A DNA stretch of 569 nucleotides from Escherichia coli (lineage in GTDB: Bacteria; Pseudomonadota; Gammaproteobacteria; Enterobacterales; Enterobacteriaceae): the NCBI RefSeq assembly GCF_003334335.1, contig NZ_QOWQ01000170.1; one strand, 5' to 3'. The notes under the pieces were generated by a model that saw nothing but the letters and a program-made list of their open reading frames with translations, did not search any database and was not told where the DNA came from. This document shows, in pieces, positions 1 through 569 of this stretch (position 1 is its first letter; each line of letters begins with the position of its first letter). A program made the position numbers and the translations under genes.

Positions 1-569
1 CCGGACCACCCGGACCACAGGGTCCGGCAGGGCAAACCGGCCCGAAAGGGGATAAAGGTGAACCCGGCGCAACAGGTCCGGCAGGTCCCGCAGGCCCTCG
101 GGGAGAAACCGGCCCCGCAGGTCCTGCGGGTCCCGCAGGCAGTGTCGCCAGTGTTCCGGATGCCAGCACATCGCAGAAGGGTGTGGTGCTGTTGAGCAGT
201 GCCACAGACAGCGCTGAGGAAAACAAGGCCGCCACGCCGAAAGCGGTGAAGGCAGCAATGGATGCGGCAAATGCAGCGAAACAGCGTGCAGAAGAGGTGG
301 CGAAGGCTGGGGCATCAGGCAGCAGTATGCCGGGACCCAAAGGCGATCAGGGGCCACCGGGGCCGAAAGGTGAAAAAGGTGAACCGGGAGCAACAGGCCC
401 CGCAGGAAAGGATGGTGCCGCCGGAGCGGAAGGTAAGGCAGGTCCGGCAGGGCCACGAGGTGAAAGGGGACCAGCGGGGGCGCAGGGTGTTCCGGGGCCA
501 CAGGGCCCTGCCGGAGGGCGAGGGCCGATGGGACCGCCCGGGTTGGATGGTAAAACCGGACCACAGGGA
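1..569 (+). CDS. Partial (5' and 3' truncated) phage/prophage tail fibre protein with collagen-like Gly-X-Y repeats; codon phase begins at nt 3
   Basis: Frame 3 (nt 3-569) is open for all 189 codons, while + frames 1 and 2 contain stops (TGA 193-195, TGA 247-249; TAA 53-55). Translation: [189 protein letters not shown]. Strict Gly every third residue over 15 and 26 consecutive triplets cannot arise by chance. Product call rests on recalled similarity of the central motif to phage tail fibre repeats; not verified by search. Confidence 0.85.
3..140 (+). repeat. Collagen-like triple-helix tract 1: 15 uninterrupted Gly-X-Y triplets plus closing Gly (coding repeat inside the CDS)
   Basis: Codons at 3-140 read [46 protein letters not shown]. 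Pro is enriched at X, and charged residues (K, D, E, R) occur in X/Y positions. Confidence 0.9.
141..332 (+). other. Non-collagenous interruption (64 aa) containing a phage tail-fibre-repeat-like motif (core about nt 177-263)
   Basis: Translation [64 protein letters not shown]. The core [11 protein letters not shown]...[12 protein letters not shown] matches my recollection of the consensus of the short repeat in lambdoid side tail fibre proteins (Pfam 'Phage tail fibre repeat'). Family assignment is from memory. Confidence 0.65.
333..569 (+). repeat. Collagen-like triple-helix tract 2: 26 uninterrupted Gly-X-Y triplets plus Gly, continuing past the window end
   Basis: Codons at 333-569 read [79 protein letters not shown], with no break in Gly periodicity. 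Confidence 0.9.

What the first reader, a model, noticed from the sequence alone, without database searches (positions are those of the whole stretch)
1..569. Modular tail-fibre shaft: collagen tract, conserved fibre repeat, collagen tract
Two long, perfectly periodic Gly-X-Y tracts (15 and 26 triplets) bracket a 64-aa Ala/Lys-rich non-collagenous module. Collagen triple helices are obligate trimers, matching the trimeric nature of phage tail fibres, so this is probably a rigid, length-setting shaft segment. Collagen-like tracts in prophage tail fibres are known, so this is a recognisable architecture rather than a new system.
Basis: partly seen in the sequence, partly recalled or inferred. 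Interest (0 to 1): 0.45.

Follow-up and report, generated by a model that had tools for sequence, protein, structure and literature searches.

The report
Collagen-like shaft of prophage tail fibre
The window is the middle of a side tail-fibre gene of a lambda-like E. coli prophage, in which two collagen-like stretches flank one conserved "phage tail fibre repeat"; this layout was described in 2012, so the finding is real but ordinary.

Summary
Frame +3 is open across all 569 nt. It encodes 15 Gly-X-Y triplets (nt 3-140), a 64-aa non-collagen module (nt 141-332) and 26 triplets (nt 333-569). Pfam finds a full-length Phage_fiber_2 repeat (E=3e-15) between Collagen matches.

The window is 100% identical to an IMG/VR contig and to a 341-kb NCBI genome contig. 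There it is residues 209-397 of an intact 500-aa gene. Both collagen tracts are cut by the window edges; the real tracts are 39 and 29 triplets.

The protein starts with the lambda Stf-type N-terminal domain. That domain matches the solved Ur-lambda Stf collar domain. The gene sits directly after tail-tip gene J.

It belongs to the EPclC class of E. coli prophage collagen-like proteins (Ghosh 2012; type example P-EibA ORF-401). The locus also carries the ORF-191 and Eib-like genes of P-Eib prophages.

Relatives with the same head and tip carry 19-68 triplets. Published EM and cryo-EM work describes such stalks as flexible.

One added detail: the Pf2 cassette in the window (about nt 159-398) is a recombinant patch. 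Nothing here is new in kind.

The parts
1..569 (+). Internal segment (codons 209-397 of 500, reading frame 3) of a lambdoid prophage side tail-fibre gene of the EPclC / ORF-401-like type.
   Evidence: All 569 bases are identical to L003 (IMGVR_UViG_2563366825_000027) 2750-3318, minus strand. The full ORF is L003:2438-3940(-), 500 aa. The exact protein is also on NCBI GCA_000407805.1 contig KE136653.1.
3..140 (+). Last 15 of the 21 triplets of collagen tract Col1b, plus the closing Gly. The tract is truncated by the left edge of the window.
   Evidence: Tract scan; Pfam Collagen aa 1-47, E=1.4e-8. The full Col1 is protein aa 136-254, made of 18+21 triplets around a GDPGGPPG break.
141..332 (+). 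64-aa non-collagen module (protein aa 255-318): a Pf2 repeat followed by an Ala-rich helical extension and a short Gly/Ser linker.
   Evidence: This module variant is 98% identical to that of P0009 but only about 70% identical to the modules of relatives that share this gene's N- and C-termini.
165..290 (+). Phage tail fibre repeat (Phage_fiber_2, PF03406), one complete copy.
   Evidence: Pfam E=3e-15, model positions 1-42 of 42. It aligns to residues 109-151 of phage Mu tail fibre protein S (PDB chains 5yvq, 9ki1, 8ju3): single sequence E=1.4e-7, profile E=1.3e-19. 958 representative protein clusters carry the repeat.
237..317 (+). Predicted alpha-helix of 27 residues ([27 protein letters not shown]). 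One heptad register puts V-A-A-A-A-V at the a/d positions, so it is a candidate short trimeric Ala-zipper coiled coil.
   Evidence: AlphaFold2 monomer model of the module: helix at residues 33-59, block pLDDT 86-92 for residues 31-50, mean pLDDT 74. Heptad read-out. For the homologous phi24B gp61, AlphaFold predicts a 'short coiled-coil motif' interrupting the collagen-like shaft. Trimer formation is inferred, not shown.
333..569 (+). First 26 of the 29 triplets of collagen tract Col2. The tract is truncated by the right edge of the window.
   Evidence: Tract scan; Pfam Collagen matches at aa 109-153 and 138-189.
159..398 (+). Recombinant patch covering the Pf2 cassette and the start of Col2. 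It comes from a different lineage than the rest of the gene. Boundaries are good to about +/-30 nt.
   Evidence: In 60-nt bins, identity to phage PhiR5_1 is 100% up to window nt 158, 78/65/60/58% across nt 159-398, 98% at nt 399-458, and 95-100% in the C-terminal domain. At protein level the patch matches P0009 (98%), which has a different C-terminus.

Best explanation
The window encodes the central stalk of a trimeric side (lateral) tail fibre of a lambda-like siphophage integrated in an Escherichia genome. The full 500-aa protein has six parts: a Stf-type N-terminal collar domain; a 40-aa Ala-rich coiled-coil stretch; collagen tract 1 (39 triplets with one register break); one Pf2 repeat with a helical extension; collagen tract 2 (29 triplets); and a 94-aa beta-rich tip domain.

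The proposed mechanism is as follows. By homology with Ur-lambda Stf, three chains join into one fibre, and the N-terminal domains of four fibres form a 12-mer collar at the junction of the tail tube and the tail tip. The two Gly-X-Y tracts fold into collagen triple helices. They are Pro-rich in the X position and have about 19% charged residues. Together they give roughly 58 nm of thin stalk. This stalk holds the small C-terminal domain away from the tail, where it can make the first, reversible contact with the cell surface and speed up adsorption.

The Pf2 module between the tracts most likely forms a compact trimeric node made of short beta elements and a three-helix Ala-zipper. Such a node would keep the chains in register, could help nucleate the triple helices on either side, and would act as a joint.

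Because the Gly-X-Y DNA is repetitive and keeps the reading frame, the tracts also tolerate in-frame expansion, contraction and crossover. This would explain both the length variation and the swapped Pf2 cassette seen here.

Shown here: sequence anatomy, homology, genomic context and mosaicism. Taken from the literature on homologues: trimer formation, triple-helix formation and the collar. Inferred: the role of the Pf2 node, receptor binding by the tip domain, and collagen tracts as recombination substrates.
For: Anatomy. The tracts, the Pf2 repeat and the open frame are confirmed.

N-terminal domain. PF08400 matches in full, E=3.6e-42. Residues 1-91 match PDB 9e7m/9mgh 'Tail fiber protein', E=2e-28. 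These are the Ur-lambda entries: Stf residues 1-91 form a dodecameric collar and each of the four side fibres is a trimer (PMC12617516).

Context. The gene lies directly downstream of a full-length lambda TipJ (2272 bits against a cut-off of 1950), with L, K and I upstream.

Relatives in real phages. The same N- and C-terminal domains (99% identity) occur in plaque-forming phages PhiR5_1 and PhiR12_x, in the position after J and Lom and followed by a 'tail fiber assembly protein'.

Known class. P-EibA ORF-401, the named EPclC example, is nearly identical over residues 1-270. The neighbouring ORF-191 (65% identity) and Eib (69% identity over the C-terminal 263 aa) are conserved too. [quoted passage not shown]

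Experiments on homologues. EPclA forms trimers and a collagen triple helix with Tm 42 C. EPclB appears as three globules (PfN, Pf2, PfC) joined by two flexible stalks. Antibody to the Sp5 homologue labels tail ends.

Composition. Pro fills 53% of X positions and 19% of residues are charged, matching the stabilisation features discussed by Ghosh et al.

Pf2 module. AlphaFold2 predicts two short strands and a 27-residue helix.

Tip domain. The model is all-beta (pLDDT 74). Its best matches are predicted C-terminal parts of tail fibre proteins from Aeromonas and Pseudomonas phages (Foldseek E 8e-6 to 1e-3, TM 0.5-0.62).

Plasticity. Relatives with the same ends carry 19-68 triplets, always in whole triplets. 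P0017 joins Col1 directly to the end of Col2 and lacks Pf2. A 56-nt, 82%-identical direct repeat links Col1 and Col2 at a spacing of 321 nt, which is in frame.
Against: No experiment exists on this protein or on any EPclC-type fibre. Triple-helix formation, trimer state and presence in virions are extrapolated from EPclA/EPclB, lambda Stf and phi24B gp61.

The 3D structure of the Pf2 repeat could not be tied to a solved structure. Foldseek of the module model against the PDB found nothing significant, and I could not tell whether the matching residues of Mu protein S are ordered in 5yvq or 9ki1. The structure models are monomeric and of moderate confidence (pLDDT 74).

The downstream gene is DUF4376, not a recognised Tfa chaperone (Caudo_TAP).

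P0017 shows that a fibre can apparently exist without the Pf2 node, so the node may not be required.

Whether this prophage is inducible is unknown.
Confidence: 0.9

Rival explanations
1. The collagen-Pf2-collagen segment is a rigid rod whose job is to set a defined fibre length.
For: Collagen triple helices are extended, at about 0.29 nm per residue, and stiffer than unstructured linkers. The tracts here are uninterrupted inside the window and rich in Pro at X, 22 of 41 triplets. EPclA's collagen domain melts cooperatively at 42 C.
Against: Relatives that share at least 90% identical N- and C-terminal domains have 19, 45, 48, 50, 59-64 or 68 triplets. Across the 120 closest homologues the range is 19-89. 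Length is therefore not conserved. EM shows variable bending and 'flexible stalks'. The collagen-like part of phi24B gp61 was not resolved by cryo-EM and is described as flexible. Ur-lambda side fibres are hinged.
Confidence: 0.15
2. It is a non-phage collagen-like surface adhesin or exosporium-type protein (Scl1/Scl2, Lcl or BclA type) that merely lies near prophage genes.
For: NCBIfam reports similarity to SclB, SclA and Lcl with E between 1e-37 and 1e-30. BclA appears among the PDB matches.
Against: All of these matches are confined to the Gly-X-Y region and lie far below the curated cut-offs: 127/325, 106/400 and 104/500 bits. The N-terminus is a complete PF08400 phage fibre domain homologous to the Ur-lambda Stf collar. 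The top PHROG matches are tail fibre families, phrog_366 with E=8e-130. The gene sits in the stf slot after J.
Confidence: 0.01
3. The gene is an intact-looking remnant of a defective prophage, or has been co-opted by the lysogen, and no longer builds a functional fibre.
For: lom is absent from the source locus and a hok-like toxin gene sits between J and the fibre gene. The contig shows morons and rearrangements relative to E. coli relatives; no complete E. coli genome covers at least 80% of the 13.7-kb locus. Many E. coli prophages are cryptic (general knowledge).
Against: The ORF is uninterrupted over 500 codons, although Gly-X-Y repeats shift frame easily. P0021 looks like a frameshifted relative. 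L, K, I and J are full-length. Near-identical head and tip domains occur in phages that form plaques on E. coli C and K-12.
Confidence: 0.1
4. The real feature is a gene on the opposite strand, since the minus strand is also stop-free across the window.
For: Minus-strand frame 3 has no stop in the window. A 383-aa antisense ORF exists in L003 at 2686-3837.
Against: Its translation is Pro/Leu/Arg-rich and matches no PHROG family. The sense frame carries three Pfam families and has G at 105 of 189 first codon positions. Long stop-free antisense frames are an expected by-product of GGN-CCN periodicity. Rfam finds no RNA family; the best match has E=0.33.
Confidence: 0.01

Closest known systems
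EPclC-type E. coli prophage collagen-like protein; type example ORF-401-like protein of prophage P-EibA (AAF63232, AF151091); Ghosh et al. 2012, PMC3368898
   Same: The domain order is the same: PfN, Col with a GxPGGPxG break, Pf2, Col, then a C-terminus that is not PfC. Residues 1-270 are nearly identical. The locus order is also the same: J, fibre, ORF-191, eib.
   Different: The Pf2 cassette is a different allele, about 70% identical and 4 aa longer. Col2 has 29 triplets, against the 75-aa second collagen domain listed for ORF-401. The C-terminal domain belongs to a different sequence class (about 19% identity, sharing only the PG-W and LFQR motifs). In the source locus lom is replaced by a hok-like gene.
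[not shown]
   Same: Two collagen domains are separated by a Pf2-type repeat. EM shows three globules joined by two stalks. [quoted passage not shown]
   Different: Those fibres belong to short-tailed phages. They have a long PCoil (109 aa) and a PfC (PF06820-type) C-terminus. The EPclA PfC sequence shows no significant similarity to this tip domain (E=0.026 over 30 aa).
Bacteriophage lambda side tail fibre Stf (Ur-lambda; PDB 9e7m/9mgh; PMC12617516)
   Same: The N-terminal collar domain is homologous (E=2e-28). The gene occupies the same slot downstream of J, and Pf2 repeats occur in the shaft. The function to be expected is a trimeric, non-essential accelerator of adsorption.
   Different: The Ur-lambda paper describes the Stf shaft as coiled-coil domains joined by a hinge and does not mention collagen. 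Its gp37-like distal tip binds OmpC and needs Tfa. Here the shaft is mostly collagen, the tip is a 94-aa beta domain, and the downstream gene is DUF4376.
Phage Mu tail fibre protein S (PDB 5yvq, 9ki1, 8ju3)
   Same: It carries one Pf2 repeat (residues 109-151) that aligns with the module in the window.
   Different: Mu is a myophage and the match to protein S is confined to the Pf2 repeat; the rest of the protein did not match here.
Bacterial collagen-like surface proteins (Scl1/Scl2, Lcl, BclA)
   Same: They have Gly-X-Y tracts that form triple helices without hydroxyproline, flanked by trimerising non-collagen domains.
   Different: The fibre does not reach the curated thresholds of those families; an anchor or signal peptide was not examined. 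This is an analogy of building material, not membership.

Membership tests
Lambda-type side tail fibre (Stf / 'prophage tail fiber N-terminal domain-containing protein') | N-terminal PF08400 (phage_tail_N) domain homologous to the Stf collar domain | tested here: met
   PF08400 covers model positions 1-134 of 134, E=3.6e-42. PDB 9e7m_Ta matches residues 1-91, E=2e-28.
Lambda-type side tail fibre (Stf / 'prophage tail fiber N-terminal domain-containing protein') | The gene lies at the distal end of a lambdoid tail operon, downstream of J (and lom) | tested here: met
   L, K, I and J (lambda_TipJ, 2272 bits) lie upstream on the same strand. lom itself is absent here but present in relatives.
Lambda-type side tail fibre (Stf / 'prophage tail fiber N-terminal domain-containing protein') | A cognate tail fibre assembly chaperone (Tfa-like) is encoded immediately downstream | tested here: inconclusive
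   A 191-aa gene follows 19 nt later. It matches DUF4376 (E=6e-18) and phrog_1141 'tail fiber protein', not Caudo_TAP. Its PhiR5_1 counterpart is annotated 'tail fiber assembly protein'.
Lambda-type side tail fibre (Stf / 'prophage tail fiber N-terminal domain-containing protein') | The protein is a trimer on the virion and increases adsorption rate | not testable with these tools
   Known for Ur-lambda; no data exist for this protein.
EPclC architecture (Ghosh et al. 2012) | [quoted passage not shown] | tested here: met
   Col at aa 136-254, Pf2 at aa 263-303, Col at aa 319-406.
EPclC architecture (Ghosh et al. 2012) | [quoted passage not shown] | tested here: met
   GDPGGPPG at protein aa 187-194. 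It lies outside the window.
EPclC architecture (Ghosh et al. 2012) | The C-terminal region is not homologous to PfC of EPclA/EPclB | tested here: met
   BLASTP against the C-terminus of an EPclA fibre from Stx1 phage EH1995 gives only E=0.026 over 30 aa. PF06820 did not appear in the current Pfam-A scans (no C-terminal family hit), so no HMM test was possible.
EPclC architecture (Ghosh et al. 2012) | Sequence relationship to the named member, P-EibA ORF-401 | tested here: met
   BLASTP E=1e-148, 64% identity overall and nearly identical over residues 1-270.
Collagen triple helix (PF01391) | Uninterrupted Gly-X-Y periodicity over many triplets | tested here: met
   15 and 26 triplets in the window; 18+21 and 29 in the gene. 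The in-register Gly run of 27 compares with a maximum of 9 in 20,000 shuffles.
Collagen triple helix (PF01391) | The tract actually folds into a trimeric triple helix | not testable with these tools
   Shown by CD, AUC and SEC-MALS for the EPclA homologue only.
Phage tail fibre repeat (Phage_fiber_2, PF03406) | Full-length match to the 42-residue repeat model, including the AATPxAVK core | tested here: met
   E=3e-15, model positions 1-42 of 42. G14, L18, A31, T32, V36 and K37 are invariant in 45 diverse copies.
LPXTG/Scl-type or Lcl collagen-like adhesins | Score above the curated NCBIfam cut-off | tested here: not met
   127 bits against a cut-off of 325 (SclB), 106 against 400 (SclA) and 104 against 500 (Lcl). 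The matches cover the collagen region only.

The most novel reading that the evidence does not exclude
The collagen tracts may be more than a spacer. They may be the preferred in-frame crossover and slippage substrate that lets the head, the Pf2 node and the tip of these fibres be exchanged and the shaft resized. On this reading the Pf2 cassette is an independently swapping functional unit, for example a docking site for the ORF-191/DUF4376 protein or a tunable joint. The window would then contain one such exchanged cassette, with both breakpoints in or next to Gly-X-Y DNA.
Probability: 0.25. Interest if true: 0.35.

Novelty: already known. Interest (0 to 1): 0.12.

Why it matters
The value is mainly practical.

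Annotation. Long Gly-X-Y tracts in enterobacterial genomes are usually prophage side tail fibres, not host-mimicking adhesins. The Col-Pf2-Col signature identifies them from a fragment as short as 569 nt.

Assembly. Many database homologues are partial proteins that end in the collagen region, so these repeats appear to break draft assemblies.

Phage engineering. Natural variants with the same ends but 19-68 triplets suggest that shaft length and the Pf2 node can be changed without destroying the reading frame.

None of this opens a new biological question. The unknowns that remain are the receptor of the tip domain, the structure and role of the Pf2 node, and the function of DUF4376 in the tfa position. 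These are ordinary gaps in tail-fibre biology.

Tried and rejected
1. An exact 51-mer scan of one genome per GTDB species found nothing. The source was found in IMG/VR and by exact-protein look-up.

2. tblastn of the whole protein against phages aligned only the N- and C-terminal domains, because the low-complexity filter removes collagen. The collagen and Pf2 parts were therefore compared by domain-wise BLASTP with the filter off, and by MAFFT.

3. I tried to link the C-terminal domain to the PfC trimerisation domain of Ghosh et al. BLASTP gives 26% identity (E=1e-6) to the C-terminus of the 652-688-aa E. coli relatives. That class is not found in the phage collection. The genuine EPclA PfC from a Stx1 phage shows no significant similarity. 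The idea that the tip is a PfC homologue was dropped. The tip instead belongs to a family of at least four divergent classes that share the PG-W and LFQR motifs.

4. PF06820 did not appear in the Pfam-A scans, so no HMM test was possible.

6. The top 149 Pf2-containing representative proteins are mostly tandem Pf2 arrays without collagen; only 5 have collagen tracts. This ranking favours multi-copy proteins, so it does not measure how common Col-Pf2-Col is.

7. The antisense ORF and an RNA element were rejected.

8. Tandem Repeats Finder sees only three trivial 9-nt, two-copy repeats in the window. The periodicity is at the protein level, not a DNA satellite.
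Full report
OBSERVATION

The 569-nt window is 67% G+C and has one frame (+3, nt 3-569) with no stop codon. That frame reads three parts:
- 15 perfect Gly-X-Y triplets plus a closing Gly (nt 3-140);
- a 64-residue non-collagen module (nt 141-332);
- 26 further perfect triplets plus a closing Gly (nt 333-569).

The longest in-register Gly run is 27. In 20,000 shuffles of the same residues the maximum was 9 and the mean 3.5.

Pfam on the translation gives a complete Phage_fiber_2 repeat (PF03406, aa 55-96, model 1-42 of 42, E=3e-15). It is flanked by three Collagen (PF01391) matches.

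The module is Ala/Ser-rich (17 Ala, 10 Ser, 6 Lys of 64) rather than Ala/Lys-rich. The minus strand also has a stop-free frame. This is the expected by-product of GGN-CCN periodicity: the corresponding 383-aa antisense ORF matches no PHROG family, and Rfam finds nothing.

WHERE THE WINDOW COMES FROM

A 51-nt exact scan found one IMG/VR contig, IMGVR_UViG_2563366825_000027, held here as locus L003. All 569 bases are identical to L003 2750-3318 on the minus strand.

The window is codons 209-397 of an intact 500-codon gene, L003:2438-3940(-). The exact 500-aa protein is on record once more, on a 341.5-kb contig of NCBI assembly GCA_000407805.1. The element is therefore a prophage in a bacterial chromosome.

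The 13.7-kb locus is 94-96% identical in pieces to E. coli chromosomes, but no complete E. coli genome covers at least 80% of it. A scan of one genome per GTDB species found no exact match.

THE WHOLE PROTEIN

- Residues 1-134 match 'Prophage tail fibre N-terminal' (PF08400, full model, E=3.6e-42).
- Residues 1-91 match the 'Tail fiber protein' chain of PDB 9e7m/9mgh (E=2e-28). These are the Ur-lambda entries.
- Residues 96-135 are an Ala-rich helical stretch.
- Col1 spans residues 136-254: 18+21 triplets around a one-residue register break, GDPGGPPG.
- The Pf2 module spans residues 255-318.
- Col2 spans residues 319-406: 29 triplets.
- A 94-aa C-terminal domain with no Pfam family closes the protein.

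GENOMIC CONTEXT

On the same strand, in order, lie:
- minor tail protein L (TIGR01600, E=1e-109);
- a moron cluster (ClpP-like, Arc-like, Ant);
- K, I and a full-length lambda TipJ (2272 bits against a cut-off of 1950);
- a 46-aa Hok/Gef-family ORF (PF01848, E=2.5e-11), in the position where relatives carry lom;
- the fibre gene;
- a 191-aa DUF4376 gene;
- a 424-aa YadA-anchor protein.

This is the layout of the P-Eib prophages. Compared with P-EibA (AF151091):
- the fibre is nearly identical over residues 1-270 (64% overall);
- ORF-191 is 65% identical;
- the YadA-like protein is 69% identical to the immunoglobulin-binding protein EibA over its C-terminal 263 residues.

Isolated, plaque-forming phages PhiR5_1 and PhiR12_x carry a fibre with 99% identical N- and C-terminal domains. 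It sits after J and Lom and is followed by an annotated tail fibre assembly protein.

WHAT IS ALREADY KNOWN

Ghosh et al. 2012 (PMC3368898) classified E. coli prophage collagen-like proteins into types EPclA to EPclD.
- EPclC lacks the PfC C-terminus, and its named example is P-EibA ORF-401.

All of these features are met here. The tip shows no significant similarity to a genuine EPclA PfC domain.

Their experiments showed the following:
- EPclA is a trimer with a true collagen triple helix (Tm 42 C) and a separate trimeric Ala/Ser-rich coiled coil (Tm about 52 C);
- PfC nucleates refolding;
- EPclA looks like a dumbbell with a semi-flexible, hinged stalk;
- tentatively, EPclB looks like three globules (PfN, Pf2, PfC) joined by two flexible stalks.

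Other published work agrees:
- Antibody against the Sp5 homologue labels tail ends (PMC5155283).
- The phi24B preprint resolves only the N-terminus of gp61. [quoted passage not shown]
- For Ur-lambda (PMC12617516), each of the four side fibres is an Stf trimer. Residues 1-91 form a dodecameric collar at the gpV-gpM junction, joined to the fibre by flexible linkers. The fibres are hinged and make the first contact with the cell. They speed adsorption 10-30-fold and are not essential.

HOW IT MOST LIKELY WORKS

By homology, three chains form one fibre anchored through the N-terminal collar domain. The Gly-X-Y tracts form triple helices. Pro occupies 53% of X positions and 15% of Y positions, and 19% of residues are charged. 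This is the hydroxyproline-independent composition that Ghosh et al. discuss.

At 0.286 nm per residue (standard collagen geometry), Col1 is about 34 nm and Col2 about 25 nm. The window itself encodes about 13 and 23 nm.

An AlphaFold2 monomer model of the module was built from 45 diverse Pf2 copies. It gives two short strands and a 27-residue helix, with mean pLDDT 74 and 86-92 over residues 31-50. One heptad register places V-A-A-A-A-V in the core positions. This fits a short trimeric Ala-zipper and agrees with the phi24B description.

I infer that the module is a compact trimeric node that keeps the chains in register between the two triple helices and acts as a joint. This is inference. 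No solved fold could be matched. The only PDB chains carrying the repeat are phage Mu protein S.

The shaft is neither length-conserved nor demonstrably rigid. Among relatives with at least 90% identical N- and C-terminal domains, the total triplet count is 19, 45, 48, 50, 59-64 or 68 (this gene). That corresponds to roughly 16-58 nm. The 120 closest homologues span 19-89 triplets, always whole triplets. One natural variant, P0017 (287 aa, 11 member sequences), joins Col1 directly to the end of Col2 and lacks Pf2 altogether. Together with the EM and cryo-EM descriptions of flexible or hinged stalks, this favours an adjustable tether over a ruler.

MOSAICISM: THE ONE ADDED DETAIL

Domain-wise comparison gives the following identities:
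- the head and coiled coil are 99-100% identical to many relatives;
- Col1 is 97% identical to the P0011 group;
- the Pf2 module is 98% identical to P0009, which has a different C-terminus, but only about 70% identical to relatives that share this gene's tip;
- the tip is 90-99% identical to the P0001-P0013 group, which includes a Citrobacter farmeri protein.

At DNA level, identity to PhiR5_1 runs as follows:
- 100% up to window nt 158;
- 78/65/60/58% across nt 159-398;
- 98% at nt 399-458;
- 95-100% in the tip.

The window therefore contains an exchanged Pf2 cassette. Its right breakpoint lies inside Col2 and its left breakpoint lies at the Col1/module boundary. A 56-nt, 82%-identical direct repeat (the [11 protein letters not shown] motif) links Col1 and Col2 at an in-frame spacing of 321 nt. 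This is the kind of substrate that could produce P0017-like deletions. Whether collagen DNA is a preferred crossover site was not tested statistically.

RIVALS

- Non-phage collagen adhesin: excluded by sub-threshold, collagen-only NCBIfam matches together with the phage N-terminal domain and the context.
- Dead remnant: cannot be excluded, but the ORF and its tail-gene neighbours are intact, and near relatives are in viable phages.
- Antisense gene and RNA element: rejected.

VERDICT

The feature is real and correctly interpreted, and it belongs to a kind that is already described, annotated by PGAP and abundant. The homologue search returned 1,853 proteins with E<=1e-20 among the scored candidates, and all 120 listed carry PF08400 and PF01391 (nearly all also PF03406). 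This allele is a new mosaic combination, but not a new kind. Interest is low.

Noticed in passing
L003 4083-4223 (minus strand); also L007 2718-2858: A 46-aa Hok/Gef-family toxin ORF (PF01848, E=2.5e-11) sits between J and the fibre gene, where P-EibA, PhiR5_1 and E. coli LZSFT34 carry lom. This looks like a type I toxin moron inside the tail operon. No Sok-like antisense RNA was searched for.
   Followed up: partly
L003 89-1363 (minus strand): A 424-aa YadA-anchor trimeric autotransporter lies downstream of the fibre. It is 69% identical to the immunoglobulin-binding protein EibA over the C-terminal 263 residues, but its N-terminal passenger region did not align, so it may be a new Eib allele.
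   Followed up: partly
L003 1843-2418 (minus strand): The gene in the tfa position is a 191-aa DUF4376 protein (phrog_1141; 65% identical to P-EibA ORF-191A), not a Caudo_TAP-type Tfa chaperone. Its role (chaperone, distal adaptor or other) is unknown.
   Followed up: partly
L003 2438-2719 (protein aa 407-500), outside the window: The C-terminal tip belongs to an unnamed family with no Pfam model. At least four classes, 19-30% identical to each other, all follow a collagen tract directly and share invariant PG-W and terminal LFQR motifs. The predicted all-beta fold resembles predicted tail-fibre C-termini of Aeromonas and Pseudomonas phages but no solved structure.
   Followed up: partly
L003 about 3359-3382 (protein aa 187-194), just left of the window: A single one-residue register break, GDPGGPPG, splits Col1 into 18+21 triplets. 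[quoted passage not shown]
   Followed up: no
Protein P0017 (287 aa, 11 member sequences) compared with window nt 3-569: This natural in-frame variant has the same head and tip but only 19 triplets and no Pf2 module. It looks like a Col1-Col2 recombination product that removes everything in the window.
   Followed up: partly
window nt 46-101 and 367-422 (L003 3234-3289 and 2913-2968): A 56-nt direct repeat, 82% identical, encodes G[DE][11 protein letters not shown] in both collagen tracts. The copies are 321 nt apart, which is in frame.
   Followed up: partly
L003 12564-13727 (minus strand): A 387-aa ORF (phrog_410, E=5e-193) lies upstream of tail gene L. Matching E. coli prophage regions carry an annotation 'ompC: porin OmpC', which suggests a prophage-encoded porin. 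That is notable because lambda Stf uses OmpC as its receptor. That this ORF is the porin was not verified.
   Followed up: no
L003 9601-11613: A moron cluster lies between tail genes L and K: a ClpP-like protease and an Arc-like protein on the opposite strand, plus a second Arc-like ORF and an Ant anti-repressor on the tail-gene strand. E. coli LZSFT34 has the same arrangement.
   Followed up: no
L003 about 3955-3990 (minus strand), just upstream of the fibre start codon at 3940: A GC-rich imperfect hairpin followed by a run of seven T ends about 12 nt before the fibre ATG. It looks like a terminator but was not scored by the consensus scan. It would imply that fibre expression depends on late-operon antitermination or read-through.
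   Followed up: no
Homologue lists: Many database relatives are 'partial' proteins that begin or end inside the Gly-X-Y region and come from short contigs. The collagen repeats seem to break short-read assemblies, so copy number and length of these fibres are probably under-reported.
   Followed up: no
window 1-569, minus strand frame 3; L003 2686-3837 (+): A stop-free antisense frame gives a 383-aa Pro/Leu/Arg-rich ORF with no PHROG match. This is an artefact of collagen codon periodicity that gene callers could mis-annotate.
   Followed up: yes
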